Assembly (NCBI RefSeq): GCF_003991155.1
Contig: NZ_CP031293.1
DNA from: Escherichia coli
Lineage (GTDB): Bacteria; Pseudomonadota; Gammaproteobacteria; Enterobacterales; Enterobacteriaceae
Reading direction: 5' to 3' (one strand)
DNA length: 64,000 nucleotides
Both the position numbers and the translations under genes were made by a program. A model generated the notes under the pieces. That model saw nothing but the letters and a program-made list of their open reading frames with translations, did not search any database and was not told the origin of the DNA. Every line of letters begins with the position of its first letter. Position 1 is the first letter of the stretch. Shown in pieces: positions 8,916 to 30,265 of this stretch.

Positions 8916-8939
8916 ATAAAAACCTTACCAATAATAAAA

Positions 8940-9698: not shown

Positions 9699-9769
9699 TA
9701 ATAATCATAATTAAATAACGTCAGTACAGCATTACGAATAATAATGTTGCATTAGTATCCAGCATCATT

Positions 9770-11170
9770 TTAGATTCTAACAACATCATCTTCATCCAAG
9801 TAGACACCTGAACGTACCTCAATAATCTCCAAAGGGATCTTTCCTGGATTCTCAATAAAATGAGGTACACCTATTGGTATATAAGTTGATTCATTTTCAG
9901 AAACAAGAAATATTTCATCTTCATAATGGACTTTTGCTGTTCCAGAAACAACAATCCAATGCTCAGTACGATGGTAATGAATCTGTTTAGCAGTTTTATG
10001 TCCAGGATGAATAACGACATGTTTAACCTCAAATCGAGATCCTTCCGCTATAGAGTCATGACTGCCCCATGGCCTAAATATTTCACGATGCTGCAGATAT
10101 TCCGTACGGTTATTAACCTTAAGTTTTTCTACAATATTTTTTACCTGTTGAACTTTATCTTTATGCGCAACGAGAATAGCATCTTTAGTTTCAACAACTA
10201 CTAAATCTTTAACTCCTACTACACCAATTAATCTATGTTGTGAGTAAAGATAACTGTCAGAAGAATCATGAATTAATACATCTCCTCTAATTGCATTTCC
10301 ACTTTTATCTTTTCTGCTAATTTCCCATAATGCAGACCAAGAACCAACATCGCTCCAGTGGGCATTTAATGGAACTACCACAGCCTCTGTTGTTTTCTCC
10401 ATAACAGCGTAATCAATGGATTCTTCAGGGCAACAACTAAATGAGTCATTATCTATACGGATAAAATCAAGATCTTGTGTAGAGGACTTCAATGCTTGTT
10501 GGCATATTTTTAGTATGTCTGGTCTAAATTTATTCAACTCATCAATAAACACAGAAGCCCTAAACATGAATATTCCACTATTCCAAAGATAATCTCCATC
10601 TTCAAGATATTTTTTGGCCACATCTAGCTCAGGCTTTTCAACAAAAGCAGAAACTTTAAAACCATATTCATTTAAATTTTCTCCGGTTTTTATGTAGCCA
10701 TATCCAGTTTCGGGTTTGGTTGGCACAATACCAAAAGTTACCAGCTTACCTTCCTCTGCAAATTCTTTTGCAGCCAATATTGACGATATAAAGCGCTTTT
10801 GGTCTTGTATTTCATGATCGGCTGCTAGTACAAGCAGTATTGGATCCTCACCTGATGAAATCGCTTTAAGAGCAGCAAGCGCAACTGCGGGGGCTGTATT
10901 ACGACCTATCGGCTCTAGTAAAATGCCACTATTCGCTAAATTTACATTACGCATTTGTTCTGCAACGATAAAACGATGAACTTCATTACAAATAACCAGA
11001 GCAGGACGATGTTCAACCCCTTCAAGCCTTCTTAAGGTCTCTTGTAGCATAGTCAAACGACTAGTTAACGATAGGAATTGCTTCGGATATAGTGTTCGAG
11101 AAAGTGGCCACAATCTAGTTCCAGAACCACCGGCCATTACAACAGGAAGTAGCATATAAATAACCTTCAC
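9770..11170 (-). CDS. manC: Mannose-1-phosphate guanylyltransferase (O-antigen locus copy)
   Basis: 466-aa ORF with nucleotidyltransferase motif (MAGGSGTRLWPLSR) and C-terminal cupin region; diverged paralogue of cpsB; true start may be the Met 15 nt downstream. Confidence 0.85.
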   Translation of the reverse strand: MKVIYMLLPVVMAGGSGTRLWPLSRTLYPKQFLSLTSRLTMLQETLRRLEGVEHRPALVICNEVHRFIVAEQMRNVNLANSGILLEPIGRNTAPAVALAALKAISSGEDPILLVLAADHEIQDQKRFISSILAAKEFAEEGKLVTFGIVPTKPETGYGYIKTGENLNEYGFKVSAFVEKPELDVAKKYLEDGDYLWNSGIFMFRASVFIDELNKFRPDILKICQQALKSSTQDLDFIRIDNDSFSCCPEESIDYAVMEKTTEAVVVPLNAHWSDVGSWSALWEISRKDKSGNAIRGDVLIHDSSDSYLYSQHRLIGVVGVKDLVVVETKDAILVAHKDKVQQVKNIVEKLKVNNRTEYLQHREIFRPWGSHDSIAEGSRFEVKHVVIHPGHKTAKQIHYHRTEHWIVVSGTAKVHYEDEIFLVSENESTYIPIGVPHFIENPGKIPLEIIEVRSGVYLDEDDVVRI

Positions 11171-11622
11171 TTAAAATAATTTTTTGTGTACTGATGAACT
11201 GAGGAATTAGCTAACAATTCGGCTATATCGAACCAATTGTAAGTACTATGTTGTAGTGTTGGATAGTTAATTTGATGTGGCATCAAACTAATCTCATATC
11301 CGTGTACGACATAATGAGTTGAAAAACAAGTCCCAGAAAAATTGTCGCTGTAGAAATGTTCATAAATCCCAAGAAATTTTGCTTCATTAATGCTAATTTG
11401 AACACCCAATTCTTCTAAAGTAACTCTTTTGAATGCGTTCTCGAAAGACTCATCTTTAAGAATCCGTCCCCCCGGCACAAACCAATAATTTTGTGCTGGA
11501 CGATTAAGGCGCTGACCAAGCAGCGCCTTACCATCTTCGTTTCTTATAATAAGGTCTATCGAGATTAGTGGAGTATGTTCAACTATTGATTTAAATAACT
11601 CTGTTTCTAATCTCTTGTTCAA
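11167..11622 (-). CDS. gmm: GDP-mannose mannosyl hydrolase (Nudix), O-antigen locus copy
   Basis: 151-aa ORF, paralogue of the colanic acid gmm/wcaH (shared YWFVPGGR motif); sits between fcl and manC. Confidence 0.8.
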   Translation of the reverse strand: MNKRLETELFKSIVEHTPLISIDLIIRNEDGKALLGQRLNRPAQNYWFVPGGRILKDESFENAFKRVTLEELGVQISINEAKFLGIYEHFYSDNFSGTCFSTHYVVHGYEISLMPHQINYPTLQHSTYNWFDIAELLANSSVHQYTKNYFK

Positions 11623-11624
11623 TA

Positions 11625-12590
11625 TTAACTCCTAAATGAGTCAAGATTATTTATAAACCATTTATATGTTAATTCTAGTCCTTGTTTTAAATTATAACGA
11701 TATTTCCAACCCAAATTCTCAAGGCGTGTAACATCCATAAGTTTACGAGGCGAACCATCTGGTTTTGTTATATCAAAAACAATTTTTCCATCATAGCCAA
11801 CAACTAAAGCCATTGTTTCTGCCATTTCACGTATGGAACAATCAACACCAGTACCTACGTTAATATGAGATAACATTGGTTGAGTATTTTTTTTATAAAT
11901 TTCATCATCAAGCTCCATCACATATACTGATGCAGCGGCCATATCATCAACATATAAAAACTCGCGTTTTGGAGTTCCCGTTCCCCAGACAACCACTTCA
12001 TTTAAACCAAGTTCCTTTGCTTCATGAAAACGCCGCATAAGCGCTGGAATTACATGTGAGTTATTGGGATGAAAATTATCATTCATACCATATAAGTTAG
12101 TAGGCATTACACTGCGATAATCACATCCATATTGGCGATTATAAGATTCACATAGCTTTATACCTGCTATTTTGGAAATAGCATAAGGCTCATTAGTAGG
12201 CTCAAGAGTTCCCGTCAAAAGTGCAGATTCTTTCATTGGCTGTTCTGCAAACTTTGGATAGATACAACTTGACCCTAAGAATAATAGTTTCTTTATGCCC
12301 GCTTTGTAAGATGAGTGAATAATATTGCTTTCAATAAGAAGGTTCTGATAAATAAATTCAGCTGGAAAAGTGTTATTAGCATGAATTCCTCCTACTTTTG
12401 CTGCTGCAAGGTAAACCTGATCTATTCTCTCTTGCTCAAAAAAACATTCAACATCCTTTTGAACTGTCAAATCGAGTTCTTTGTGAGTTTTGACAATTAA
12501 CTCAACATCATTACGTGCTAATAATTGACGACAAATAGCAGAACCAACCATCCCACGATGTCCAGCCACAAAAATTCGCTTCTTGGTCAT
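11625..12590 (-). CDS. fcl: GDP-L-fucose synthase (O-antigen locus copy)
   Basis: 321-aa ORF ([19 protein letters not shown]...) clearly paralogous to the fcl at 34970..35935. Confidence 0.9.
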
Positions 12591-12593
12591 ACT

Positions 12594-13715
12594 TTAACGC
12601 TCCAAAGAGACTGCCACGTCAAAACCATGGCTTTTAAGAAGTGCATGCTGTTTAGCTTTTTCTAAATCACTAGCCACCATTTCTGCACACATTTCTTCAA
12701 CTGTAATCTCTGGCTCCCAACCCAAGACATTTTTTGCTTTTGTTGGATCACCAAGAAGAGTTTCAACTTCTGCTGGTCGAAAATAACGAGGGTCAACGCG
12801 AACAATAACATCACCAATATTAACACCAACGGCGCAATCTGATGTTTTATTTACAACAAATGCAATCTCATCAACACCAGTACCGGAAAACTCAAGTTCA
12901 AGTCCAACTTCTTTAGCAGACATACGGACAAATTCACGTACAGATATTTGTTTGCCGGTGGCAATAACAAAGTCTTCTGGCTGGTCTTGTTGAAGCATCA
13001 TCCATTGCATACGAACATAATCTTTCGCATGCCCCCAATCGCGTAAAGAATCCATGTTGCCAAGATATAAGCATTTTTCTATTCCCTGCGATATATTAGC
13101 TATAGCACGTGTGATTTTACGTGTTACAAACGTTTCCCCACGACGTGGGGATTCATGATTGAACAAAATACCGTTACATGCATACATTCCATAAGACTCA
13201 CGATAGTTTACAGTGATCCAATATGCATACAGTTTAGCTACGGCATAAGGTGAACGAGGATAGAACGGCGTTGTCTCTTTTTGTGGAACTTCCTGAACTA
13301 ATCCATACAATTCAGAGGTTGACGCCTGATAAAATCGGGTTTTTTTTTCTAATCCCAAAAAACGAATAGCTTCCAATAATCGTAAAGTACCTATAGCATC
13401 AACATCAGCTGTATATTCTGGGGATTCGAAGGAAACAGCTACGTGACTCATTGCGCCAAGATTATAAACTTCATCAGGTTGAACTTCAGATAATATCCGA
13501 GTCAAATTAGAAGTATCTGTTAAATCACCATAATGAAGTTGTAATTTTAAATTACGATGGTGTGGGTCTTGATATATATGATCAATACGGTCAGTATTAA
13601 ACAAGGAAGATCGACGTTTTATTCCATGAACCTCATAGCCTTTTTTAAGCAGAAATTCTGCCAAGTAGGAACCATCTTGCCCGGTAATTCCTGTAATTAA
13701 AGCTTTCTTACACAT
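12594..13715 (-). CDS. gmd: GDP-mannose 4,6-dehydratase (O-antigen locus copy)
   Basis: 373-aa ORF ([17 protein letters not shown]...) highly similar to the colanic acid gmd at 35938..37059. Confidence 0.95.
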
Positions 13716-13725
13716 AAATAACCTC

Positions 13726-14733
13726 TCAAAACTTAGATAGTGATTTATATAGATTATATGTTTCGGAGAAACACTTCCCCCATGAAAATTTATTAGATTG
13801 CGCTAATCCTTTATTTTTTAATTCATTAGCGTTAGCTTCTACACTTAATAAAGCTGAGAATAAACTTTCAATTGATACTTCTTCGACTAAAATCGCACTA
13901 TCCCCCACAACCTCGGGTATTGATGATCTATTTACGGCTATCACAGGACAGCCAGTTCGCATAGCCTCAAGCAAGGGAATTCCAAACCCTTCATATTCTG
14001 AAGGATAGATTAAGCAATAAGCCGAATTATATAATATATTTAGTTTTTCATTTGATACCTTCCCTAAGTACTGGAATCTTTCTGGAAGATATTCAGATAG
14101 TAACTTCATTTCTGCTTTATTTAAACCACCTCCGCCGACTATTTTAAGATTAGTATCAAAAAGTTTAGAAATGGCTTTAACTGCAAGCTCAAAATTTTTA
14201 TATCCTGAACGAGCACCGACAAAAAGCACAAAATTTTCTTTTTCTAGATTTAAGTGTCTATAATCTTCCGATACACCATTATGAATAACATGTATCTTTT
14301 TTTCATCAACCTTAAAGAAATTAATTAAATCCTTGGCTGTATTATTAGAGACACAAATGATTGCATCGCTATGTTTCACAGCCCATCTTTTTTGTAAGCT
14401 ATGAACATTGCGCCGAAGTCCTTTCATATACAATTCATATGTGAAATCGTGGACCGTGGTCACAACCGCATATTCCCCATCTTTCGGAACCCGATAATAT
14501 GTAGAATGAAATATACTGTAATCTGAATCACTTTTTAATGCTTCAAAACATCTATATCGTTCTAAAAACCGGCATGGCCGATGGAGATCATCATTGTGAT
14601 TTTCATTTTTATCATTAAATTGAATGAACTTGTATTCGTCATTTTTTAATCTCTTAATGATTTCTTCAAAGTATACAGTGATACCACCATATGATTGTAA
14701 ACTTTTCACAATCCCATCATATAATATTTTCAT
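13726..14733 (-). CDS. Family-4 (GT-B) glycosyltransferase, O-antigen cluster
   Basis: 335-aa ORF with C-terminal [13 protein letters not shown] motif typical of GT4 enzymes; AT-rich. Confidence 0.7.
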
Positions 14734-14801
14734 TTTTTGTTTTCATATATATAGATAACAATACAGTAAGCAATGAAATGGATGATTATAATTGTTTCAA
14801 T

Positions 14802-15818
14802 TTACTCTTTATATCCATTTGGATTCATTGTTTGCCATCTCCATGCATCTTCCACCATATTATTAAGAGTCCTTTTAGCAACCCAACTTAGCTGCTCGTT
14901 TGCTAAGGAAGGATCGGACCAACATTCAGCCACATCTCCATTTCGCTCAGAAACGATACGGAAAGGTATATCGCGTCCTGTTTCCAGTTTAAAAGCGTCG
15001 ATGATATCTAACACACTATAACCTTGACCAGTGCCTAAATTAAAAACTTTAAGCCCCTGGTTTCTATTGAGATTTTTTAAAGCGGCAAGATGCCCCTCAA
15101 CTAAATCGACTACATGGATATAATCTCTTACACCTGTTCCATCTTTTGTCATATATTTATTACCAAAAACATTTAGATAGGGTAATTTTCCAATTGCGAC
15201 TTGCGCAACATAGGGAAACAGGTTATTAGGAGTTCCTAAAGGATCTTCTCCAATTAATCCAGTCTCATGAGCACCTACAGGATTAAAATATCTTAGTATT
15301 GTGATATTTGCGTCGCTATTCGCGTTACAAAAATCACGCAATATATGTTCCACCATAAACTTTGAACGACCGTACGGATTGATCACCTCACCGACAGGGT
15401 GTTTTTCAGATATTGGAACATAATGAGGATTGCCATAGACAGTAGCAGACGAACTAAAAATTAGATTAGAAATATTCGCTTTCTGCATTTCATCAAGTAA
15501 TATTAGAGTCCCCAAAAGATTTGTGTCGTAATATTCTAATGGTTTTTTAATGGACTCGTTAACAGATTTTAAACCCGCAAAATGCATTACAGTAGAAACA
15601 TTATATTTTGAAAAGATATTTTTTAATATATGTCTATCTCTAATATCACCACGTAATTTTTTTATCTTAGATAAGCAAATTTCCTCTACTCGTTCTAGAG
15701 ATTTTGGAGAGGAATTGCAATAATTATCTAGCGATATAACATCATATCCATTTTGCAATAAAGTTAATATAGCATGTGAGCCAATATAGCCAGCCCCACC
15801 AGTCACAAGTATGCTCAT
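14802..15818 (-). CDS. UDP-hexose / UDP-N-acetylhexosamine 4-epimerase (GalE family)
   Basis: 338-aa ORF with N-terminal TGGAGYIGSH Rossmann motif and overall GalE-like layout; embedded in the O-antigen cluster; substrate not determinable from sequence. Confidence 0.85.
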   Translation of the reverse strand: MSILVTGGAGYIGSHAILTLLQNGYDVISLDNYCNSSPKSLERVEEICLSKIKKLRGDIRDRHILKNIFSKYNVSTVMHFAGLKSVNESIKKPLEYYDTNLLGTLILLDEMQKANISNLIFSSSATVYGNPHYVPISEKHPVGEVINPYGRSKFMVEHILRDFCNANSDANITILRYFNPVGAHETGLIGEDPLGTPNNLFPYVAQVAIGKLPYLNVFGNKYMTKDGTGVRDYIHVVDLVEGHLAALKNLNRNQGLKVFNLGTGQGYSVLDIIDAFKLETGRDIPFRIVSERNGDVAECWSDPSLANEQLSWVAKRTLNNMVEDAWRWQTMNPNGYKE

Positions 15819-15838
15819 ACTTTAATAGCTCCAATACC

Positions 15839-16906
15839 TTAATTTTCTTGACTATTGGCTCGATTGATCAAACTCATCCACTGAGCACTAACTATTTCTT
15901 CTGTATAATGTCTATTCACGAATAGGAATCCTGCATTTCCGTGTTCGGTTCGTTTAACATTATCTTCAAAGTAAGTTAGTTTTTCCTGAAATTCAATTTG
16001 AGATTGACACACAAATCCGCCACCCGATGAAGAAATCACGCTACTTGTCCCTCCAGATATATCCATTGAAATTACAGGTAATCCGTAGGACATAGCTTCA
16101 AGTATTGTAACAGGAAAACATTCAAAGTATGAACCGGATACAAAAACATCACTTTTTGCCAAAAAAACATCTGTGTTTAAACTCGGTCCATGAAAGTGTA
16201 TTTGGTTGTTATTCTTATATTTAGATTTGAGATACTCCAGCTCTTGACCACCTCCTACAATGTGTAAAACATACTTTTTTGTAGACGGGTGATTTATTAC
16301 TGCATTAATTAACCTTTCAACTCCTTTATCTTTAACAATCCGACCAATATAAATCAAATCAAGAGTTTCTTTTCCTTGATGTATGCGCTTATATTTTTGC
16401 GTTTTGATTGAATTTGGTATAATTACAACCCTTTTACAAAAAGTAAACTTATCTTTTTCCTTGTGAGAATTACAAACTACTACAGCTTTTTTATTAAGAG
16501 ACAAAAGAAATTTAAATACTTTTCTCCAAAAAATACTATTCTTGTCAAATGGATAATGTTCCCAGCAAATAATTTTATTCTTATTATACCGAAAAAAACC
16601 AATCAATAACAATAATGATGATGTAGCTATATCCGTGGAAATTATTAATTCAAGGTCTTTACTTTTGGCACTCAAAAAAAACAAATATTTAATGTAAAAC
16701 CTTAATTTGCTTTCTTCATATGCAGTATTGTCTTGGAATAAGTAGGTTTTCCGATTATCTTCTCTAACTTGTATCTCTTGTGCGTTTATTGCTGAAAAAC
16801 ATCTCACTTGTAGGCTGTTTTTAGTTAATATATCAATTAGATTTTCAACTGCTTTCTCAGTGCCACCTATTTTATTTTCATACAGCTTAAAGACTCCAAT
16901 GGACAT
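15839..16906 (-). CDS. Family-4 (GT-B) glycosyltransferase, O-antigen cluster
   Basis: 355-aa ORF with GT4-type C-terminal motif (FECFPVTILEAMSYGLPVIS). Confidence 0.7.
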   Translation of the reverse strand: MSIGVFKLYENKIGGTEKAVENLIDILTKNSLQVRCFSAINAQEIQVREDNRKTYLFQDNTAYEESKLRFYIKYLFFLSAKSKDLELIISTDIATSSLLLLIGFFRYNKNKIICWEHYPFDKNSIFWRKVFKFLLSLNKKAVVVCNSHKEKDKFTFCKRVVIIPNSIKTQKYKRIHQGKETLDLIYIGRIVKDKGVERLINAVINHPSTKKYVLHIVGGGQELEYLKSKYKNNNQIHFHGPSLNTDVFLAKSDVFVSGSYFECFPVTILEAMSYGLPVISMDISGGTSSVISSSGGGFVCQSQIEFQEKLTYFEDNVKRTEHGNAGFLFVNRHYTEEIVSAQWMSLINRANSQEN

Positions 16907-16907
16907 T

Positions 16908-18143
16908 TTATTGACTCACTCTTATATATTCTGCTGATTTAACTTCTTTATTGAATAGGAATAATGAGGGCTTATACAATATATCGCACCAAGACACATA
17001 AATAATATCTTTACCCATATTTGCCTGTGCCAAATTTATGATTGAACATGCGGTAATGAGTATTAAGAAGATCAGATGCTTACATAGTTTGCTAATTTTA
17101 TTAATATCGTAGGAGAAAAATATATAACTATATAATAACACCCAGAAAATGGAAAATCGATAAAATAAATCAGGCGATAACGATAAAAGGCATATCAGCA
17201 AAAGAAGTAAACTGCAAAAATTTTTGATTTGTGACTCTTGCCTCGTCATTTTTTTATTAAATAAAATTAAATAGATAAAAGTAAAAATAAAAAACACTGA
17301 CGGTAATATGATCTTATTCAAGATATATTCATTAGTGCTCAGCAAGCTATTGCTTATGCCTATGGTTACAGAGTCCATATATTCGGGAAAGTAAAAACCT
17401 AAGCTTTCCAATAATGGCCTAATCAATTGAAATAGCAAAGAAGATATTAACCCATCATGGTTAAGGATTAGAACTAATATTATTAAATACAATATTGTTT
17501 TGTTAAGTCTTATTAATTTGCTAACAAAAAAAACACCTAGCAATAGTATTGCGCTGGGATGAATACAACATGAAATAATTGCAGAGAATATAATTTTTTG
17601 TGACTTATACCTATTATTTTCACTGGTGAAATACTGTATAATCATATAAAGCATAATACTAAATGCAAGATATTGCCGCAATGAACTAGCTATAGCAAAA
17701 AATGGGATTACGCTTATTAGAATATATAAATATATACATCTATGAGATAATTCCGGATTGTATTTTTTAATGTAATTAACATATATATTAAAATAAAAAA
17801 TATATGATAAAAATGTTGAAAAAAAAGGTAAAAATTCTTTTTTTATTCCTAAAGATTTAAATAAATAAATAACAGTATTTATTGTAATATATCTATTGTC
17901 ACTATTTTCAAAAACTTTGTTTAGTGATGTTTGACTAACATATAAATATGTTTCATAATGCCTAGTCAAATCCCAATTTTCATAAGGTATTAACAAAAAT
18001 GCTAGTACCCCTAGCATAAATGAACATACATAAACACTCCATCTGGCCCCATTAATCATTTCAATCATTGCTAATAATAAAGCAAGAGGCAAATAAATTA
18101 TTGAAATAAATGAAGCACTAATTTTTATGTTTCTATTAATCAT
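16908..18143 (-). CDS. wzy: O-antigen polymerase
   Basis: 411-aa very hydrophobic, multi-pass, AT-rich ORF with low similarity to anything else in the window, between glycosyltransferases; typical Wzy signature. Confidence 0.65.
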   Translation of the reverse strand: MINRNIKISASFISIIYLPLALLLAMIEMINGARWSVYVCSFMLGVLAFLLIPYENWDLTRHYETYLYVSQTSLNKVFENSDNRYITINTVIYLFKSLGIKKEFLPFFSTFLSYIFYFNIYVNYIKKYNPELSHRCIYLYILISVIPFFAIASSLRQYLAFSIMLYMIIQYFTSENNRYKSQKIIFSAIISCCIHPSAILLLGVFFVSKLIRLNKTILYLIILVLILNHDGLISSLLFQLIRPLLESLGFYFPEYMDSVTIGISNSLLSTNEYILNKIILPSVFFIFTFIYLILFNKKMTRQESQIKNFCSLLLLLICLLSLSPDLFYRFSIFWVLLYSYIFFSYDINKISKLCKHLIFLILITACSIINLAQANMGKDIIYVSWCDILYKPSLFLFNKEVKSAEYIRVSQ

Positions 18144-18865
18144 CTTTTTATAACTTTTCTCATAAATAGGTAAATATCTGCTAACGCCGCATATAATTTC
18201 CCGTTTCTTTTCTTTCGGATTTGTCTCGCTTCCTCCAATGCTAATTTTACATTTTTAGCGCTAAGGCCGGCATTTCTCATCGAAGAGATATTTTTATCAA
18301 TATAATGAAAGATATAACCTTGTTTCTTCAATTTTAGCAAAAGATCATAATCAGAAGCAATTTTATAGCTAGTATTAAATAAATTTTCTCTGTGGATATC
18401 TTTTCTAATAAATGTGGCCGGATGGCTTAAATTCATATCTATATGTAGTTTCCAGTCTTTAGGCCTCCGGACCTGAATAACATCCAAGCTATCAGCCTCT
18501 ACCAAAGACATATTTCCATAAATAACATCATATTTATTTTCTTTCATTACTTTTATTACTTGACATAATACATCTTTATTATAAAAATCATCAGCGTTTA
18601 TAAATCCTATATAATTTCCAGATGCTTTTAACACACCTTTATTCATTGCATCATATATACCATTATCATTTTCAGAAATGATATATGAAATTTCATTTTT
18701 GTAAGAATTAACAATATTTAGAGTATTATCCGTTGATGCACCATCAATTATAATATATTCAATGTCATCATTGCAGTTTTGTGATAAGACACTTTTTATA
18801 GTATCTTCGATATACATTTCGCCATTGTACACAACGGTAACTATTGTTAAAGTTGGTTTATTCAT
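18140..18865 (-). CDS. Family-2 glycosyltransferase (WcaE-like), O-antigen cluster
   Basis: 241-aa ORF with GT2 motifs ([28 protein letters not shown]); paralogous to the GT2 at 8940..9698 and to wcaE. Confidence 0.7.
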   Translation of the reverse strand: MNKPTLTIVTVVYNGEMYIEDTIKSVLSQNCNDDIEYIIIDGASTDNTLNIVNSYKNEISYIISENDNGIYDAMNKGVLKASGNYIGFINADDFYNKDVLCQVIKVMKENKYDVIYGNMSLVEADSLDVIQVRRPKDWKLHIDMNLSHPATFIRKDIHRENLFNTSYKIASDYDLLLKLKKQGYIFHYIDKNISSMRNAGLSAKNVKLALEEARQIRKKRNGKLYAALADIYLFMRKVIKR

Positions 18866-18873
18866 TGTTAGCC

Positions 18874-20109
18874 CTACAATAAATTTAAATTATTTAATTT
18901 ATTTGTTTTCTTAATCAAAAAGTAAAATCTCGCCATTATTATAAACTCAGTTGAAATAACTCCTATTGCTGTACCAACTCCTGAGTATTCATTAGTCAAA
19001 TAAGTAATTATCAGTAGGCCTATTAATCCACTGGTAGTAATAATTTTTGTAAATTCTTTTTTCATACCAATAGGGATCATTACTAAAATTGCAATATAAT
19101 TACTTACCGTAACTATTGCTGGAGTAAAAGCTAAAACTTTGAGTATTTCTAAAGATTCATGATACGTTTTTCCATACATGATTAAAATTATATCGTCTGC
19201 AAAAAAGTAAAGAAATATGGAAAGTACGAACATCAGTGAAAATTGCCATCGAAACACTTTCCTGGCTAATAATAGTCCATCGTCATGATTATCCTTCATT
19301 ATATAAGTTACTCTAGGAAAAACAGCTTGGGTTATAGGACCAATAACGCCTTGTAGTGCAAGCCTAATTTTATCTGCAGCGATAAAATATCCCACTGCAG
19401 TTGTTCCTGATAATGCACCTAATATTATTGTTGAACTAGTAGTATAAAGGCTTATTGCTGCAGAGGAAATGAAGTAATGCCATCCATCATAAATTAACTC
19501 TTTCATTTTGGATAAGGATGGTGGTACCCATATTATTTTTTTAAGAGAAAATAAAAAATATGTAGATATTATACCTGCAATAACTGTTATTGATGATTGT
19601 ATTGTTATCGCTATACCAAGATCCTTTTCACTTTTAACCAATAAAAATGTTAAACATAGTGTAAGTAAGCGTGCGGAAAACATACTTATCGCTATTCCTA
19701 ACATTTTTTCCAGCCCTTGAAAAAACCATACTGGATATATTAAATTTCCTACGACAGATATGTATGCAAGAATGATAAATTTAATTTGGTAATCAATGAT
19801 ATTCAATTCCGAAATTAAATAAATAATTAACAAACCAAGAGATGCTGCAATTATTTTGATAAACGTTACATTCCAAAAAACTTTACTTATGGAATCAGTA
19901 TTTTCCCTTGATATTGATATGATTTTGGGCGCTGAGTAGTTAAATCCGTAATCAATAAATAATATAAAATATTGGACCACAGCAAAACTATACCCATATA
20001 TCCCGTATCCTGTAGGTTCAAGGATCCTGACAAGATAAGGCAGTGTGACCAATGGAAATATATAATTGCCACCTTGAACGCTTAATAAATAGATGATGTT
20101 TTTTAACAT
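18874..20109 (-). CDS. wzx: O-antigen flippase
   Basis: 411-aa polytopic membrane ORF with Wzx/MOP-family-like N-terminus; first gene downstream of the JUMPstart/ops element. Confidence 0.7.
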   Translation of the reverse strand: MLKNIIYLLSVQGGNYIFPLVTLPYLVRILEPTGYGIYGYSFAVVQYFILFIDYGFNYSAPKIISISRENTDSISKVFWNVTFIKIIAASLGLLIIYLISELNIIDYQIKFIILAYISVVGNLIYPVWFFQGLEKMLGIAISMFSARLLTLCLTFLLVKSEKDLGIAITIQSSITVIAGIISTYFLFSLKKIIWVPPSLSKMKELIYDGWHYFISSAAISLYTTSSTIILGALSGTTAVGYFIAADKIRLALQGVIGPITQAVFPRVTYIMKDNHDDGLLLARKVFRWQFSLMFVLSIFLYFFADDIILIMYGKTYHESLEILKVLAFTPAIVTVSNYIAILVMIPIGMKKEFTKIITTSGLIGLLIITYLTNEYSGVGTAIGVISTEFIIMARFYFLIKKTNKLNNLNLL

Positions 20110-20189
20110 AACGAGCCTACGTACTTAACAAGTCTTATTTTGCACGATAGTTTACAATTTGTTAAGTAATATGGGATAAACATTTAATT

Positions 20190-20201
20190 CACGCTACCGC
20201 C
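20190..20201 (-). promoter_or_regulatory. ops element (GGCGGTAGCGTG on the coding strand) within a JUMPstart-like leader of the O-antigen operon
   Basis: Exact reverse complement cacgctaccgcc seen on the + strand in the galF-wzx intergenic region. Confidence 0.8.
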
Positions 20202-20481
20202 CCTGGCTCAACAGCTACCAGCGTACTGCATGCATGTCCTAGTTGTACCTAGCATTAACCGTTATGGTTAGTTCGAAAAGCTTAACTCTGAACGTTTTAC
20301 CAAATCGCTTCAGAGATGGAGAAAATCTCAGCCTCCCACAATAAATGCCTATTGAAAAGTTATTGTTACTCATATTTAGAACGGTATAAAGAAAGAATGA
20401 GGCAATGAGTACAATTAGCCCCACGAATCCTCACCGCCGTTATAATTTTCTTATCAACCGTTACATCCGGTCAGATTTTCA

Positions 20482-22770: not shown

Positions 22771-24165
22771 CTACTCCCTCCGTTCCGGCAATCTAAAGTT
22801 AATCTTCTCCACATTAACAATATGGTGATTAATCCTGTCGATATCGACGGAGCTTTGCCCTTTTTCATTCACTGCATGAATATTCGTGAGTGAAAGCAGC
22901 GTTTTACGCTTTGCCATAAAAACGCCTCGAACGTCTTTGCGCATGTCAAAGTTCATGCTCAATGCGGGTCCAACTGAGGATTCCTGCATCACATTGATAT
23001 TTCGCATAAAAAGATGTTGCGGTTTGTTGTGTAACTCCAGCGACGCACGCTTCATCTCAATGTTAGTCAGCGCCACAAAGGAGACAGCATTCCCGGCGGA
23101 GATTTGAATGCCGCGCAATTTATAAGCAAGATGAGTATTATCCAGTTGAATATCATTCACTCGGAAATTCTGCGGTATCGAGAGATATTTGCCTTTAATT
23201 ACCCCATAGCCGATTAACATCCCGGCACTATTAATCATTTCAATATTATCAATCACAAAGTTGTCACAACCATAAATAGCAACTGTGGCGTTATCAATAC
23301 CTGCTTTCTTACTGAAATCCGGCGTGATATTACGAGCTTTGATATTACGGATAACAAAATGTTTACCATTTTCAACATGGATCAGTTGCCGACAATCCGA
23401 TCCCGTGATATTCGCCACGACAAAGTTTTTCACTGCCTGGTTTTCCGGATAATTATTATCGTAGGTACTTCCCGCAAGGCCTATGCCGATGCCCCAGTTG
23501 ATTTTGCCGTTGGTACAGTTAATGCGCTCAATGAGATGGTCGGATATCAAAATATCACTGTCGTTAATCGCCACGTTCCATTCAATAGCGTCGCCCTGTA
23601 AGTCGCTGAACTTACAGTTGGTGATGTTGGCACCGATTATCTGGTTATGAAATCCCTGGCGTAAGATGGCGTAATTAGCGTGGCTAACGGTCAGGTTATC
23701 GATGGTCAGGTTGTGCATGACCCGTTTGTTTTTGCCGCCGATATAAATCTGCGTTACCGGACCAAAGCCGCTCATCGCCAGCCCTTTGATGGTGCAGTCA
23801 GAACCACGCACATCCAGGGTGATGTTATGCATACTGCCGCCCTCCTCCCCTGTCACCTGGCTGCCGTCCTGTAAGACAAATCGCCCTCTGCCGTTGCCGC
23901 GCAGGCTTCCAAGGATGTGTAACGTTTTACCTGCAGGAATGAAGATGCCGGTGTTGATATTGTCACAAACCAATCCGGCAGGCACGACGACCGTTTGCCC
24001 TTCGCTGAAGGCTTGTTTAAATGAGGCGATCCAGTCGTGAGGGTTGTAGTCGTTAATGTTAACGCTTTGTTGAGCGGGAAGTGCGCGGGCGAAAGGCGTA
24101 TGGAGGAAGGCAAGCACAGAGCTTGCCGTCAGGAAGGTGCGTCGGGAGAGTTTTTTAAATGGCAT
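22771..24165 (-). CDS. wcaM: Colanic acid biosynthesis protein WcaM
   Basis: 464-aa ORF with Tat-like signal ([15 protein letters not shown]) and repeat-rich body; last gene of the colanic acid cluster. Confidence 0.9.
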
Positions 24166-24175
24166 GCGTTCTCCT

Positions 24176-25396
24176 CTATAAAGCCTGCAGCAAGCTGGCG
24201 AGTTCTCGATTGATCACCTGCTGGTTAAAATCGTGTTCGACTTTTTCGCGAGCACGTTTGATAACCGGAGCCAGTTCGTCGGTGTCCAGTTGGCTAAACG
24301 CCGCCAGTCGTTGCGCCAGTGCGCGAGCATCGTTCTCAGGCACCAACCAGCCGGATTTATCGGCCTCCACCAGTTCAGGAATTCCGCTATGCAGAGTAGA
24401 AACCACCGGAATGCCGACCGCCATCGCTTCCATTAGCGCCACCGGAATGCCTTCCATATCGCCGTCCGCACCCGTTACCGAAGGCAGCAGGAAAACATCC
24501 GCGTCGTCTAGCATCGCTTTCACTTCGTGGCTCGGTTTAAAGCCCGGCATCTCTACCACATCTTCCAGTTGATATTGTTCGATGAGGGTGCGCAGGCGTC
24601 GTTCCCACGGGCCAATGCCGAGGATGCGATAGCGAAATGCCACGCCCTGCTCTTTCAACTGACGGCAGGCTTCGATCGCCACATGCAGGCCTTTTTTCTC
24701 GGTTAAGCGTGCGACGGAAATGATTTCCAGCGGTGTTGCGGGCGCTTTCACCGGACGCGGGCTAAAGCGCGTCATGTCCACGCCCATGCGCGATACGGCG
24801 ATTTTTTCCCTCGGGCATCCCATTTTTTGCAGCCTTCCGGCCCACAGATCGCTGATCGGTAGCATCAGGTCGCCACGGCGGAACAGTTGCTGATATTCGG
24901 GAGTGTAGTGGTTGAGCACTTCCCGACTGGAGATATCAATGCCGTGGAAGATAGTAGCGATTTTGCCGCGAATGATACCCAGTTCCCGTAGTTTTGCTGC
25001 GATTACCCCCGCAGGGCCAAAATGAGCGATAAAGACATCGGCATAAAATGGTGTTGCGACCTGGCCGCAAATGGCAGACAAAATCAGGTTCCGCGACTCA
25101 GCACCATAGCGTTTGAGGTTGAGCGCCTGCCAGGTATTTTTACGATGAATGCCGCGTAAGGTCTGGCTGGCGCGGTGGCGCAGTTTCGCCACTTTGCCCG
25201 TAGGTTCGTCCTGTAACCAGCGGGTTCTGGCGGCAAGGTTATATTTTGTCCATGCCGCGTGGGTGTTTTGTGTGTCGCCTTTTTGCAGCGCGACAATCTC
25301 CACCTCAAAGCCCATATCAATAAACGCGGTAATTTGATTGAGGACGAAGGTTTCCGACGACAGTGGAAATTTCAGTAAAAAGAAGCCGACCTTCAT
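24176..25396 (-). CDS. wcaL: Colanic acid glycosyltransferase WcaL
   Basis: 406-aa GT4-type ORF in conserved order. Confidence 0.9.
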
Positions 25397-26673
25397 TTCG
25401 CCTCCCCGATGCGTTCAAGCACAGATTTCACCATCTGCATTCCCGTCTGACGTTCGCGACTGACGGCTTCGTTAAGTCGCGTGTTCAGTGCCGGAAGCTG
25501 GCCTAAGGTATCCGCAACCATCGCTTGCAGGCTGCCGTCTAATAAATGACGGATATCAATTGCCATCTCTGGTAGCCCCAGTTGTTGCATAATCCCGGCG
25601 GATTTATGTTCATAGTTGATGGCAATCGCCGGAGTGGCAAAGTTCATCGAGATAATGGCAGAGTGCAGGCGCGTACCGACGGTGAGTTCACAGGCCCCCA
25701 GAATTTTGCCCATTTCCAGATCGTTGAGTTCATCCATCACCACGTGGTAACGGGCAGGATCGCTGATGTGCTGGCGAAGATTGAGCGCCACCATGCGGTC
25801 GTCTTTGTTATAGCTGTCGATGCCCGTACAGGTGGAAAGCGCAATCACCTGATACCCTTCGTCGAGAATGCGATTGACCACCCCGGCAAAGGCTTTTTCA
25901 TACGCTTGCTGAGTGGTGCCGAGACGTTTGTCGAACGGTGCCAGTTCGCGCAGGGTAATTGCTACCGTTTTCTGTTGTGCGGCAACGTCCAGCCAGTGTT
26001 GAACGGCATAGCTGGCGGTGAAGTCTTCTGTGTGGTGATCGACCAGCCACGCAGTATCGACGCCATGTTCGACTTTTGCGGTGGTGATATTGCTGCGTTT
26101 CATCAGTTCAAGGCTGACCGATTCGCGCAGGATCAGCGCGTCGCAGTGACCAAAAACGTAGTTCGCCAGTTGGTTAAATTGCTCATCCTGGAATGGACCA
26201 ACGCTGTGACCAATCATAAATAGCGGCTTTTTCGCCATGAAAGTGCAAAGCGCGTGTTCAAACTGCGGCACGCCGTAGAGATCGACAAAAAACGATCCGC
26301 CGACCTGAATAATGGCGTCGTAACCTGACAGCAGGCGCACGAAGTCAGTGAATCCCTGAGCGATGGCGATATTACGCAGCTTGCCAGTGTCGGTGACGCG
26401 TGAGAGCAATACCTGATGCTGATAGCGGCGACGGAGGACTTTTTTAACGCGCCCGACAACGCCCGCCGCGCTGTTGTGTTTTTTCATTTGCAGGAACAGC
26501 GGATCGCCCATTACCGGGCGGTTGAGCAGCCAGGAAGAACTGACCGGATAGCGGCTCATCACGTCCACTTCGGCATGTGGATTGAGGATATTGATGGCAT
26601 CAAGTAAGCCACGCAGGATGGCGCTATCGCCACGATTGCCGCAAGTGTGGTTGCCCAGAATAAGTAATTTCAT
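25393..26673 (-). CDS. wcaK: Colanic acid pyruvyl transferase WcaK
   Basis: 426-aa ORF (MKLLILGNHTCGNRGDSAIL...), polysaccharide pyruvyl transferase-like. Confidence 0.9.
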   Translation of the reverse strand: MKLLILGNHTCGNRGDSAILRGLLDAINILNPHAEVDVMSRYPVSSSWLLNRPVMGDPLFLQMKKHNSAAGVVGRVKKVLRRRYQHQVLLSRVTDTGKLRNIAIAQGFTDFVRLLSGYDAIIQVGGSFFVDLYGVPQFEHALCTFMAKKPLFMIGHSVGPFQDEQFNQLANYVFGHCDALILRESVSLELMKRSNITTAKVEHGVDTAWLVDHHTEDFTASYAVQHWLDVAAQQKTVAITLRELAPFDKRLGTTQQAYEKAFAGVVNRILDEGYQVIALSTCTGIDSYNKDDRMVALNLRQHISDPARYHVVMDELNDLEMGKILGACELTVGTRLHSAIISMNFATPAIAINYEHKSAGIMQQLGLPEMAIDIRHLLDGSLQAMVADTLGQLPALNTRLNEAVSRERQTGMQMVKSVLERIGEAK

Positions 26674-26734
26674 TTTTTCCTCATAAATTTGATGCCAGGT
26701 GAGGCTGTGTTTGTTGTGTTCGTTGCCGTTTTTT

Positions 26735-27312
26735 GCCTGATGCGACGCTAACGCGTCTTATCAGACCTACAAGATCCGAGCACAGAACCGTAGGACGGAT
26801 AAGGCGTTCACGCCGCATCCGGCATTCAGTGCCTGATGCGACGCTGACGCGTCTTATCAGGCCTACAAGACCCGAGCACAGAGCCGTAGGACGGATAAGG
26901 CGTTTTACGCCGCATCCGGCATTCAGTGCCTGATGCGACGCTGACGCGTCTTATCAGGCCTACAAGATCCGAGCACAGAACCGTAGGCCGGATAAGGCGT
27001 TTTACGCCGCATCCGGCATTCAGTGCCTGATGCGACGCTGGCGCGTCTTATCAGGCCTACAAGACCCGAGCACAGCCCCCCAGGACGGATAAGGCGTTTT
27101 ACGCCGCATCCGGCATTCAGTGCCTGATGCGACGCTGACGCGTCTTATCAAGCCTACAAGATCCGAGCACAGAACCGTAGGCCGGATAAGGCGTTTTACG
27201 CCGCATCCGGCATTCAGTGCCTGATGCGACGCTGGCGCGTCTTATCAGGCCTACAAGACCCGAGCACAGCCCCCCAGGACGGATAAGGCGTTTTACGCCG
27301 CATCCGGCAACC
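26735..27312. repeat. Tandem array of about six REP/BIME-like palindromic units (~100 bp each)
   Basis: Repeated gcctgatgcgacgctgacgcgtcttatcaggcctacaag...ccgtaggacggataaggcgtt[tc]acgccgcatccggcattcagt with small variations, between wcaK and wzxC. Confidence 0.9.
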
Positions 27313-27336
27313 GTTGCCGGAACCGAAAACAGCCAT

Positions 27337-28815
27337 TCACCCCGCCCGTAAAAGCATTTTCATTTTTTCGCTGCGACAAAACTGACGCTTCACTTCCACT
27401 ACCAGCGGATGGCGTGACAGCACAATCATCACCACAAACGCCAGCACGCCCGCGGCTATTTGCACCGCCAGCAGCATGCCCAGAGCCATTTGCCCTTTCA
27501 GTACAATGCCCAGCGCATAACTGACCACCAGCGTCGGCAGCGAGAGATAAAACGGCAGCCATAAACTGAGGATGTACTGGCGATAACTGGAACCAAGAAC
27601 CGGTTTAATCATCACGAAGTAACTCAGAATGGTGTTGATAATCTGCACCAGCAGGAAACCGAGCGTGACGCCGATTGCGCCCGCCATCTGCCCACCAATA
27701 ACAATCGCCGGAATAAACAGAAAGGTTTTGAATACGTTGAATTTAAAGCTGATATCGACCCGCGCTTTCGCCATCAGCAGCGAACCAATCGGGTTCCCTA
27801 CTGAGCGCAGCAGCCCCACCACACACAGCAATTGCAGCACCGGAATAATGCTGCTCCACTTCTCACCAAAGACCAGCGGTACAAAGTTATTCGACACCAC
27901 CATCAGCCCCAGCAGCGCCGGAAAGTTGATAATCCCCACCACCGACAGCAGCTTGTAGAAGTTGATGCGCAGCTTTTCGGTGTCGTCCTGAATTTTGGCA
28001 AATGCCGGAAACAACACGCGGGTGATGATCGGATTCAGCTTCATCGGCGGCACAACGGCCACGTTGTACGCCAGGTTGTATCCCCCTGCCACGCCCGCAC
28101 CGAGAATACGCGCCAGCACCAGCGTTGAAAGGTTGGTGTTGAGATAGTTGATGATGCTGTCCGCCGTCAGCCAGGCACCAAAGCGTAAGTTCGGTGCCAC
28201 CGACGCCAGCGAGAAGTGCAGACCGGGGCGATAAATTTTGCGGCCAAAGTAGCCAAACAGCAGCGTTCTTACCGCACTATTGACCAGATAACCGAGGATC
28301 GCGGTCATCGCCAGTGGCCAGAAATGGGCGCTAACCACCGTAAAAGTGAAGCCCGCCAGCACCGCGCTGGTTTCGATCATGCCGATTTTGTTGAACTCCA
28401 GCTCTTTTTGCATCAACGCGCGGAACTGCTGCCCGTGGGGGATCACCACAAACGCCAGCGACAATGTTTTAATCAACGGTGCCAGGTCTGGGTTGTTCAG
28501 CACGTCACCAATGAGATCACTCAACAAAAACACCGCCACGCACACCACAAGCCCCAGCCCGACGTTCAGCCAGTACAACGTGGTAAGTTCCAGGTGACTG
28601 ATTTCTTTTCGCTGAATAATCGAGTTAGCGATACCGAAGTCAGAAAGCGTATCTGCCAGCGCGATGATCACCAGCGACACGGTAAGCAAACCGAACTGGT
28701 GGTTGTCGATAATCCGCGCCAGCACGGTCATCTGCACCAGCCCGAGGCCGATGATGATCACCGTGGCAATCGCCGACCACTTCGCGCCGCTGATGGTTTT
28801 TTCACGTAAGCTCAT
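27337..28815 (-). CDS. wzxC: Colanic acid repeat-unit flippase
   Basis: 492-aa polytopic membrane ORF in conserved position. Confidence 0.9.
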   Translation of the reverse strand: MSLREKTISGAKWSAIATVIIIGLGLVQMTVLARIIDNHQFGLLTVSLVIIALADTLSDFGIANSIIQRKEISHLELTTLYWLNVGLGLVVCVAVFLLSDLIGDVLNNPDLAPLIKTLSLAFVVIPHGQQFRALMQKELEFNKIGMIETSAVLAGFTFTVVSAHFWPLAMTAILGYLVNSAVRTLLFGYFGRKIYRPGLHFSLASVAPNLRFGAWLTADSIINYLNTNLSTLVLARILGAGVAGGYNLAYNVAVVPPMKLNPIITRVLFPAFAKIQDDTEKLRINFYKLLSVVGIINFPALLGLMVVSNNFVPLVFGEKWSSIIPVLQLLCVVGLLRSVGNPIGSLLMAKARVDISFKFNVFKTFLFIPAIVIGGQMAGAIGVTLGFLLVQIINTILSYFVMIKPVLGSSYRQYILSLWLPFYLSLPTLVVSYALGIVLKGQMALGMLLAVQIAAGVLAFVVMIVLSRHPLVVEVKRQFCRSEKMKMLLRAG

Positions 28816-28816
28816 A

Positions 28817-30211
28817 TCAATATGCCGCTTTGTTAACGAAGCCCTTGAATACCGTCAGGAAAACGATTTTGATATCGAACCAGACGCTCCATTCGCGGAT
28901 GTACTCAAGGTCGAACTCGACGCGTTTTTCCATTTTCTCCAGCGTGTCGGTTTCGCCGCGCCAGCCGTTAATCTGCGCCCAACCGGTAATGCCCGGTTTC
29001 ACTTTATGGCGCAGCATGTAGCCTTCAATGAGCTGGCGATACTGTTCGTTATGCGCCACCGCGTGCGGACGTGGACCGACAATCGACATCCCCCCGGTCA
29101 GCACATTGATAAACTGCGGCAATTCATCCAGCGAGGTGCGGCGCAGAAAGTTCCCCACTTTGGTGACGCGCGGATCGTTCTGCGTCGCCTGGGTCACCAC
29201 TTTGTCGTTCTCCATCACTTTCATGGAACGGAACTTCCACACTTTGATCGGCTTGCCATCCATGCCGTAGCGAGTCTGGCGAAAAATAACCGGCCCTGGT
29301 GAACTGAGTTTTACCGCCAGCGCAATACAGCACAGCACCGGGGAGATCAGCAGCAGAATAAGCGTTGCCAGCACAATATCTTCCGCACGTTTGAGCAGGC
29401 GGTTTACCCCGGAAAGTGGCGTGTCATACAGCGGCACCACCGGAACGCCGTTCATCTCTTCGAGACGTGAATGGAGAATGTTGAAGGTAAAGACATCGGG
29501 GATCAGCAGCACCGAACAGGTGGTGTCCGCCAGTTGATGGACCAGTTTTTTTACTCGTGCGCCGTCGCACATCTGCATCGCGATATAGACGTTATGAATC
29601 TTGCCCGCTTTCGCATCCTCGACCAGCTGTTGCAGATTGCCCGCCCAGTCGTTAGAAACGCCGCCCGGTTTTGGGTCGTGGTAAACGCCCACCACTTCAA
29701 ACCCTAACCACGGCTGATTACGGAAGCTCTCAAGCAGCATTTGTCCGGCGGCTAAATCCCCCGCCACCGCGACCATGCGCTTGTTATAGCCATGATTACG
29801 CAGCCAGCCCGCCCCAATGCGAATACATGAACGGCAAACCACCAGTCCGATACTGGTCAGCCCATACCACGCCAGCCAGATTTTCAGTTGCGTGTCGAAA
29901 TCATTGTTGAACGCCACCAGTCCAGCGCTGAAAATCACGCTTAAGGTCCAGTTTTGTAGCAACAGGGCAAATTCTGTCGCTGCCCGAACACCGCGCCATG
30001 AGCGATAAAAATCGGTGATGCCGCCCAGCATCTGGAACACCACCAGCGTAATCAGTGCCACCAACAGGTGCATGTAGAGGAATGACAGTCCGCTGACTTC
30101 GCAAACCAGCCATAGTCCGGCAAACATGATGGTGATATCTGAAAAGCGTTGCACCATAGAGATTAACGATGCATTGGTTTTCGCTCGCTCGCGCTTTTTT
30201 AGATTTGTCAT
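28817..30211 (-). CDS. wcaJ: Undecaprenyl-phosphate glucose-1-phosphate transferase (colanic acid initiating transferase)
   Basis: 464-aa ORF with N-terminal TM segments and C-terminal sugar-transferase domain (PGITGWAQ). Confidence 0.9.
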   Translation of the reverse strand: MTNLKKRERAKTNASLISMVQRFSDITIMFAGLWLVCEVSGLSFLYMHLLVALITLVVFQMLGGITDFYRSWRGVRAATEFALLLQNWTLSVIFSAGLVAFNNDFDTQLKIWLAWYGLTSIGLVVCRSCIRIGAGWLRNHGYNKRMVAVAGDLAAGQMLLESFRNQPWLGFEVVGVYHDPKPGGVSNDWAGNLQQLVEDAKAGKIHNVYIAMQMCDGARVKKLVHQLADTTCSVLLIPDVFTFNILHSRLEEMNGVPVVPLYDTPLSGVNRLLKRAEDIVLATLILLLISPVLCCIALAVKLSSPGPVIFRQTRYGMDGKPIKVWKFRSMKVMENDKVVTQATQNDPRVTKVGNFLRRTSLDELPQFINVLTGGMSIVGPRPHAVAHNEQYRQLIEGYMLRHKVKPGITGWAQINGWRGETDTLEKMEKRVEFDLEYIREWSVWFDIKIVFLTVFKGFVNKAAY

Positions 30212-30265
30212 CGTTGTTCCTGTTATTAGCCCCTTACCCGCAGTGTGGTAAGGGAAGATCCGACA

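What the first reader, a model, noticed from the sequence alone, without database searches (positions are those of the whole stretch)
20110..20481. ops/JUMPstart leaders present upstream of both polysaccharide operons
The 12-nt ops sequence (GGCGGTAGCGTG on the coding strand) occurs at 20190..20201 upstream of wzx and at 46168..46179 upstream of wza. Both contexts share the extended motif cacgctaccgcccctggc, consistent with RfaH-dependent antitermination of both long operons.
Basis: partly seen in the sequence, partly recalled or inferred. Interest (0 to 1): 0.3.

Follow-up and report, generated by a model that had tools for sequence, protein, structure and literature searches.

The report
Known RfaH-loading leaders before two sugar operons

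Summary
GGCGGTAGCGTG occurs exactly twice in 64 kb, at 20190-20201 and 46168-46179. Both copies lie on the minus strand, which is the coding (non-template) strand, 80 nt upstream of wzx and 178 nt upstream of wza.

Each copy is the 3' end of a full 39-nt JUMPstart element (20190-20228 and 46168-46206). Rfam RF01707 scores them at 57.0 and 57.3 bits against a gathering score of 35. The two elements are 31/39 identical, with a shared 19-nt 3' block.

The window is essentially identical to E. coli strain 2016C-3878 (O11-type O-antigen cluster). In seven different galF-to-first-O-antigen-gene spacers, the JUMPstart is the only invariant block. The colanic acid copy is identical in the K-12-type strain C600. 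An intact rfaH gene is present in that near-identical genome.

Published ChIP-seq in E. coli CFT073 shows RfaH at both the wzx and wza leaders, and RNA polymerase occupancy collapses along the wzx unit in a ΔrfaH strain.

RfaH dependence was not tested in this strain, and the promoters upstream of the two elements are only inferred. Novelty: already known. Interest: low.

The parts
20190..20228 (-). JUMPstart element of the O11 O-antigen operon leader (CAGTACGCTGGTAGCTGTTGAGCCAGGGGCGGTAGCGTG)
   Evidence: Rfam RF01707, 57.0 bits against a gathering score of 35, full model 1-38. It is the only invariant block in an alignment of 7 different galF-to-first-O-antigen-gene spacers.
20190..20201 (-). 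ops element GGCGGTAGCGTG on the non-template strand, 80 nt upstream of the wzx ATG
   Evidence: Exact match. Perfect match to RGGCGGTAGYNT. Distance to wzx.
20203..20221 (-). 5-bp stem (CUGGU / GCCAG) and 9-nt loop of the JUMPstart consensus structure
   Evidence: The Rfam alignment shows no non-canonical pairs. The stem also appears in the single-sequence fold, but the z-score is not significant (-0.69).
20110..20481 (-). galF-wzx intergenic region, which should hold the O-antigen promoter and leader. About 60 nt next to galF (about 20421-20481) is conserved in thousands of E. coli genomes; the rest varies with serogroup.
   Evidence: 3033 genomes match, mostly query positions 1-70 only, and 65 match the full length. 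Supported by the alignment. Only weak promoter-like matches were found. The transcription start is not mapped.
7545..20109 (-). O11-type O-antigen operon, 12 genes from wzx to manB, 35.4% G+C (30.7% in the wzx-to-GT4 part)
   Evidence: ORFs, RefSeq annotation of the near-identical record, composition.
46168..46206 (-). JUMPstart element of the colanic acid (wza-wcaM) operon leader (CAGTGTATTGGTAGCTAAAAAGCCAGGGGCGGTAGCGTG)
   Evidence: Rfam RF01707, 57.3 bits against 35. Identical in K-12-type strain C600. The surrounding 611 nt is present at 90% identity or more (at least 95% in all but 15 genomes) in 4818 of 5426 E. coli genomes.
46168..46179 (-). ops element GGCGGTAGCGTG on the non-template strand, 178 nt upstream of the wza ATG
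46181..46199 (-). 5-bp stem (UUGGU / GCCAG) and loop of the JUMPstart consensus structure
   Evidence: Rfam alignment. The first pair is U-G here and C-G in the O-antigen copy. This stem is not in the single-sequence minimum-free-energy fold.
46295..46322 (-). Candidate sigma-70 promoter for the colanic acid operon (TGGAGA-16-CATAAT), about 90 nt upstream of the JUMPstart. Inferred only.
   Evidence: It is the only promoter-like site in 45950-46650, which is fewer than the 3.3 expected from shuffles, so it is a weak lead and not evidence.
22771..45989 (-). Colanic acid operon wza-wcaM, 23.2 kb, 52.8% G+C

Best explanation
Two canonical JUMPstart/ops leader elements are present, one ahead of the O11 O-antigen operon and one ahead of the colanic acid operon.

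The mechanism below comes from published work and is inferred here by homology. Transcription starts at a promoter upstream of each element. When RNA polymerase transcribes the ops sequence it pauses at U11, and the exposed non-template strand GGCGGTAG folds into a small hairpin. RfaH's N-terminal domain reads that hairpin. RfaH is released from autoinhibition, its C-terminal domain refolds, and it stays on the polymerase for the whole transcription unit. There it excludes NusG, suppresses pausing and Rho- or H-NS-assisted termination, and couples the polymerase to the ribosome. The distal genes (manB, wcaM) are therefore expressed.

What is shown here: the sequence, strand, position, family membership and conservation of both elements, and the presence of rfaH in the near-identical genome.

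What is inferred: that both elements lie downstream of a promoter, and that RfaH actually acts on them in this strain.
For: 1. The exact 12-nt ops occurs only twice in the window, both times on the coding strand in the operon leaders. About 0.006 matches are expected by chance.
2. Rfam RF01707 scores both elements about 22 bits above the gathering score, with no other hit in 64 kb.
3. The two copies are 31/39 identical and share a 19-nt 3' block.
4. The JUMPstart is the single invariant island in otherwise divergent galF-to-first-gene spacers of seven E. coli O-antigen loci. Similarity ends immediately after ...GCGTG. Some genomes match the query only over the 39-nt element (H23-H25).
5. The colanic acid copy is identical in K-12-type C600.
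6. rfaH is intact (162 aa) in NZ_CP029747.1. That record differs from the window at 3 of 28,391 and 0 of 6,611 compared bases.
7. From the literature: RfaH ChIP signal at the wzx and wza leaders of CFT073, lost in ΔrfaH; RNA polymerase traveling ratio for wzx reduced to 0.1-0.34 of wild type (PMC9765446). The wild-type ops sequence and base-by-base requirements are in PMC5995543.
8. wza has no Shine-Dalgarno-like sequence and wzx only a weak AGG. This fits RfaH-assisted ribosome recruitment.
9. The serotype-specific part of the O-antigen operon is 30.7% G+C, the kind of DNA on which H-NS impedes elongation.
Against: Nothing contradicts this explanation. The remaining gaps are these:
- No transcription start site is mapped. 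Promoter-like matches are at or below chance level.
- No RfaH dependence data exist for this strain.
- In CFT073, RfaH was seen at wza only in a Δhns ΔstpA background, because the promoter is silent in rich medium. The colanic acid ops therefore matters only when the Rcs system switches the operon on.
- Intrinsic-terminator-like sites inside both operons are no more frequent than in shuffled sequence. The sequence alone therefore does not show what is being antiterminated. Rho-dependent sites cannot be predicted with these tools.
Confidence: 0.93

Rival explanations
1. The two 12-mers are chance matches with no function.
For: At one mismatch or fewer, 3 of 100 shuffles gave at least 2 matches. 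The 8-nt core GGCGGTAG also occurs at three other places in the window.
Against: Both matches are exact and are embedded in 39-nt elements that are 31/39 identical to each other. Both score 57 bits on an independent curated model. Both are on the coding strand directly upstream of the first gene of a polysaccharide operon. The element is invariant across divergent loci. The expected number of exact matches is about 0.006.
Confidence: 0.005
2. The JUMPstart is conserved mainly as a recombination junction for exchanging O-antigen cassettes, and is not a transcription signal.
For: It lies exactly at the 5' boundary where O-antigen loci of different serogroups stop being alignable. Some genomes match only over its 39 nt.
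Against: An equally well conserved copy precedes the colanic acid operon, which is not a variable cassette: it is present in 4818 of 5426 genomes. Published ChIP and ΔrfaH data show a transcriptional role at both loci. A junction role could exist alongside the regulatory role but cannot replace it.
Confidence: 0.03
3. The element acts chiefly as a structured RNA (the Rfam 'JUMPstart RNA' hairpin) that binds some factor or changes leader folding independently of RfaH.
For: The 5' half (CAGT....TGGTAGCT) is conserved although it lies outside ops. The consensus 5-bp stem can form in both copies, with a C-G to U-G change between them.
Against: Single-sequence folds are not better than shuffles (z = -0.69 and -1.53), and the colanic acid copy does not adopt the consensus stem in its minimum-free-energy fold. 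Two copies with one wobble change give no real covariation. The RfaH-ops mechanism already explains the 3' half.
Confidence: 0.04

Closest known systems
JUMPstart/ops leader of E. coli O-antigen (rfb) clusters, for example K-12 galF-rfbB and the O6 (CFT073-type) galF-wzx leader
   Same: Same position (between galF and the first O-antigen gene), same strand, identical ops 12-mer, and an identical 19-nt 3' block. The whole 39-mer differs from K-12 at about 5 positions, all in the variable 5' and loop positions. RfaH is bound at the O6-type wzx leader in CFT073.
   Different: The flanks are specific to this (O11-type) intergenic region; only 65 of 5426 genomes share at least 80% of it. The distance from ops to the start codon is 80 nt here, against 40-67 nt quoted for wzx, kps and rfa in CFT073.
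JUMPstart of the colanic acid (cps/wca) operon of E. coli K-12 (Stout 1996, cited in PMC9976346)
   Same: The 39-nt element is identical to that of K-12-type C600. The whole 611-nt wza upstream region is 98.2% identical.
   Different: There are only 11 substitutions, none in the element. Six of them cluster in a hairpin just upstream of it.
ops elements of other RfaH operons (rfaQ/waaQ, hlyCABD, kps, F tra)
   Same: The same core GGCGGTAG plus the T11-G12 pause signal on the non-template strand of a leader (PMC5995543).
   Different: According to the literature, those loci may carry ops with or without the full 39-nt JUMPstart context. This was not examined here.

Membership tests
JUMPstart element (Hobbs & Reeves 39-bp element; Rfam RF01707) | Sequence and structure profile match at or above the curated gathering score | tested here: met
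   57.0 and 57.3 bits against a gathering score of 35, full-length model matches.
JUMPstart element (Hobbs & Reeves 39-bp element; Rfam RF01707) | Located just upstream of the first gene of a polysaccharide gene cluster, on its coding strand | tested here: met
   80 nt upstream of wzx and 178 nt upstream of wza, both on the minus strand like the genes.
JUMPstart element (Hobbs & Reeves 39-bp element; Rfam RF01707) | Consensus 5-bp stem in the 5' half | tested here: inconclusive
   All five pairs are standard in both copies. However, the folds are not better than shuffles, and the stem is absent from the minimum-free-energy fold of the colanic acid copy.
ops / RfaH-dependent operon | 12-nt ops (RGGCGGTAGYNT; G5, T6, A7, G8 and the T11-G12 pause) on the non-template strand | tested here: met
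   Perfect at both sites and nowhere else in the window. Identical to the wild-type ops12 of PMC5995543.
ops / RfaH-dependent operon | ops lies in the transcribed leader, downstream of the operon promoter | tested here: inconclusive
   Only consensus-level promoter-like sites were found, at or below chance frequency. A conserved galF-proximal block exists upstream. No transcription-start data were available. In CFT073, sigma-70 peaks lie upstream of ops at wzx and wza.
ops / RfaH-dependent operon | rfaH gene present in the genome | tested here: met
   Intact 162-aa rfaH at NZ_CP029747.1 4680401-4680889 (translated). That record differs from the window at 3 of 28,391 and 0 of 6,611 bases. This is met by proxy, because the window itself does not contain rfaH.
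ops / RfaH-dependent operon | RfaH recruitment at ops, and RfaH-dependent expression of distal genes | not testable with these tools
   Published only for the corresponding leaders in CFT073 (PMC9765446), with general statements for colanic acid.
ops / RfaH-dependent operon | First gene lacks a canonical Shine-Dalgarno sequence (a typical feature, not strictly defining) | tested here: inconclusive
   The wza upstream sequence AAAGTGATAAATAAACA-ATG has none. wzx has only GTAGGCTCGTT-ATG. No quantitative ribosome-binding-site model was run.

The most novel reading that the evidence does not exclude
The conserved 5' half of the JUMPstart (CAGT....TGGTAGCT plus stem) lies outside the RfaH-contacted ops. 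So do the extra GGCGGTAG cores on the same strand: inside wca genes at 33498 and 39200, and antisense within yegH at 46759. Together with the two leader sites that makes 5 cores against 1.27 expected. These sequences might form an additional, undescribed layer, such as a second factor binding the leader RNA or DNA, or secondary RfaH re-loading or pause sites within or upstream of the colanic acid operon.
Probability: 0.03. Interest if true: 0.35.

Novelty: already known. Interest (0 to 1): 0.07.

Why it matters
The result mainly serves as correct annotation. It marks where RfaH-dependent transcription units begin in this O11 strain, and it explains how two long polysaccharide operons (the O-antigen one AT-rich) can be expressed to their distal ends. 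It is useful for engineering O-antigen or colanic acid expression and for defining the 5' boundary of the O-antigen cassette. It opens no new question, because the same elements at the same loci have been described since 1994-1996 and RfaH binding there has been shown by ChIP-seq.

Tried and rejected
- **RcsAB box.** I searched for an RcsAB-box consensus recalled from memory (TAAGAATATTCCTA, up to 3 mismatches) to anchor the colanic acid promoter. There was no hit upstream of wza, and the 4 hits elsewhere were at chance level. I make no RcsAB-box claim. Two papers that mention the box gave no coordinates.
- **Stout 1996.** This paper on the cps promoter is not held in the library, so the mapped transcription start could not be compared.
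- **Intrinsic terminators.** Scans across both operons and the wcaM-gne-galF segment found counts equal to shuffled sequence. They give no sequence-level evidence for or against internal terminators.
- **RNA folding.** Folds of both JUMPstart regions were not significantly more stable than shuffles.
- **Small ORF in the O-antigen leader.** A 44-codon ORF (20373 to 20239, minus strand, read) is rejected as a gene. Its ATG is absent from the K-12-type and O6-type leaders (ATCAGA instead of ATGAGT), and nothing else supports it.
- **Hairpin upstream of the colanic acid JUMPstart.** I considered the hairpin plus T-run at 46268-46212(-) as a leader attenuator (z = -2.63). It is not conserved: six of the 11 differences from C600 fall in it and two break the T-run. 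It also fails the terminator scan.
- **Extra GGCGGTAG cores.** The cores at 33498, 39200 and 46759 lack the full consensus, so I do not count them as ops sites.

Full report
**What the window is.** The ORF map and a megablast against complete E. coli genomes place the window in the his / O-antigen / colanic acid region of an E. coli chromosome. Two long stretches compared directly with NZ_CP029747.1 (strain 2016C-3878) differ at 3 of 28,391 bases and 0 of 6,611 bases. RefSeq annotation of that record gives the following genes, all on the window's minus strand:
- wza (start 45989) through wcaM (end 22771), the colanic acid operon
- a GlcNAc-P-P-undecaprenol 4-epimerase gene (22613-21618)
- galF (21375-20482)
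- a 12-gene O11-family O-antigen cluster from wzx (start 20109) to manB (end 7545)
- then gnd, ugd and wzz

The finding's span 20110-20481 is exactly the galF-wzx intergenic region.

**Checking the observation.** GGCGGTAGCGTG occurs at 20190-20201 and 46168-46179, both on the minus strand. These are the only matches even with one mismatch allowed. Base composition predicts about 0.006 exact matches. The published consensus RGGCGGTAGYNT (quoted in PMC3101779) matches perfectly only at these two sites. On the coding strand the two contexts read:
- CAGTACGCTGGTAGCTGTTGAGCCAGGGGCGGTAGCGTG (O-antigen)
- CAGTGTATTGGTAGCTAAAAAGCCAGGGGCGGTAGCGTG (colanic acid)

They are 31/39 identical, and the last 19 bases are the same in both. 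Rfam's curated JUMPstart model (RF01707) hits exactly these two 39-nt stretches at 57.0 and 57.3 bits, against a gathering score of 35, and hits nothing else in the window.

**Comparative evidence.** I aligned the galF-to-first-gene spacer of the window with six other E. coli loci whose first O-antigen gene differs: rfbB in three strains, O6 wzx, galE and a hypothetical gene. The JUMPstart is the only block that is invariant in all seven, and similarity ends immediately after ...GCGTG. Consistent with that, the megablast of this spacer found three kinds of match:
- 65 of 5426 genomes share most of the spacer.
- Thousands share only the roughly 70 nt at the galF end.
- Some share only query positions 263-301, which are exactly the 39-nt element.

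The wza upstream region behaves differently. It is part of the conserved genome: 4818 of 5426 genomes carry it at 90% identity or more, and all but 15 of those at 95% or more. Its JUMPstart is identical in the K-12-type strain C600.

**Anatomy and mechanism.** Both ops elements lie on the non-template strand of their operons, 80 nt (wzx) and 178 nt (wza) upstream of the start codon. The sequence is identical to the wild-type ops12 oligonucleotide used for the RfaH:ops structure and for mutagenesis. In that work G4, G5, A7 and G8 were essential for RfaH recruitment, T6 and C3 were important, and T11/G12 set the pause (PMC5995543). wza has no Shine-Dalgarno-like sequence and wzx only a weak one, as is typical of RfaH targets. 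The serotype-specific half of the O-antigen operon is 30.7% G+C and the colanic acid operon is 52.8%.

In E. coli CFT073, RfaH ChIP-seq signal starts at the ops of the wzx leader in wild type, and at the wza leader once H-NS/StpA silencing of the promoter is removed. It disappears in ΔrfaH. RNA polymerase occupancy along wzx drops to 0.1-0.34 of wild type without RfaH (PMC9765446). Other papers describe colanic acid transcription as JUMPstart/RfaH-controlled (PMC9976346; PMC3101779) and place the galF-JUMPstart unit upstream of the O-antigen in colanic acid producers (PMC6128206). An intact rfaH gene is present in the near-identical genome.

The best explanation is therefore the established one. 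RNA polymerase pauses at ops, RfaH loads onto it through the non-template-strand hairpin, and the modified complex resists pausing and Rho/H-NS-assisted termination along the 12.6-kb and 23.2-kb operons.

**What is not shown.** Promoters upstream of the elements are only inferred. The consensus scans give weak sites at or below chance frequency, my recalled RcsAB-box consensus found nothing upstream of wza, and the paper that mapped the cps promoter is not in the library. Intrinsic-terminator-like sites inside the operons are no more frequent than in shuffles; Rho-dependent sites cannot be predicted here. The 5-bp stem of the Rfam consensus can form in both copies, but single-sequence folding is not significant. 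The role of the 5' half of the JUMPstart therefore remains a matter of the literature and was not tested here.

**Rivals.**
- Chance is excluded.
- A pure recombination-junction role fits the position at the edge of the variable cassette. It does not explain the copy in front of the invariant colanic acid operon, nor the ChIP data.
- An RfaH-independent RNA-structure role is not supported by folding or covariation.

**Novelty and verdict.** This is a correct recognition of a well-known feature at its two classical loci. The only strain-specific details are the O11-type flanks and the 80-nt distance from ops to the start codon. Novelty: already known. Interest: about 0.07. The most novel reading not excluded is an extra function for the conserved 5' half, or for the three additional GGCGGTAG cores on the same strand. 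I give it about 3%.

Noticed in passing
window 61696-63157: Five tandem SIB RNA genes (+ strand; 139-150 bits on Rfam RF00113), spaced 328-335 bp apart. Each lies opposite an 18- or 19-codon Ibs-type hydrophobic toxin ORF on the minus strand (for example MMKHVIILVILLVISFQAY, MMKILIIVVLLVISFPAY). From memory, K-12 has two modules at this locus, so this looks like an expanded type I toxin-antitoxin array.
   Followed up: partly
window 26793-27251: Five tandem naRNA4 / REP-type repeats (Rfam RF02564, 63-78 bits, + strand). They fill the 663-nt gap between wzxC and wcaK inside the colanic acid operon, so the RfaH-modified polymerase has to pass through a structured, untranslated stretch.
   Followed up: no
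window 31641-31690 (-): An algC RNA motif (Rfam RF02929, 78.2 bits against a gathering score of 33.8) in the cpsB-cpsG gap, just upstream of the colanic acid phosphomannomutase gene.
   Followed up: no
window 7583-8917 and 30304-31638: The O11 cluster's manB is 96.3% identical over 1335 nt to the colanic acid cpsG, and the two are direct repeats 22.7 kb apart. The other duplicated GDP-fucose genes (gmd, fcl, gmm, manC) give no blastn match. This suggests gene conversion or recombination between the two loci, and provides a substrate for deletion.
   Followed up: partly
window 48306-48924 (+): A RelE/ParE-family toxin gene (48306-48644) and an HTH antitoxin gene (48634-48924) sit between yegH and asmA, according to the annotation of the near-identical record.
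   Followed up: no
window 33498-33505, 39200-39207, 46759-46766 (all minus strand): Three further copies of the 8-nt ops core GGCGGTAG, all on the same strand as the operons. With the two leader sites that makes 5 in the window against 1.27 expected, and 0 of 100 shuffles reached 5. Two lie inside colanic acid genes on the non-template strand and one is antisense within yegH. None has the full 12-nt consensus with the TG pause.
   Followed up: partly
window 46212-46268 (-): A hairpin followed by UUUUAAAAA lies immediately 5' of the colanic acid JUMPstart (fold z = -2.63). Six of the 11 substitutions relative to K-12-type C600 fall inside it, and two of them break the T-run, so it is not a conserved attenuator.
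   Followed up: partly
window 46298-46447 (+): RefSeq annotates a 49-aa 'hypothetical protein' on the opposite strand within the wza promoter/leader region. It is probably a spurious call that overlaps the regulatory region.
   Followed up: no
window 21618-22613 (-): A GlcNAc-P-P-undecaprenol 4-epimerase (gne/gnu-like) gene lies between wcaM and galF. That puts it outside, and upstream of, the JUMPstart-led O-antigen unit, although it probably serves O-antigen synthesis.
   Followed up: no
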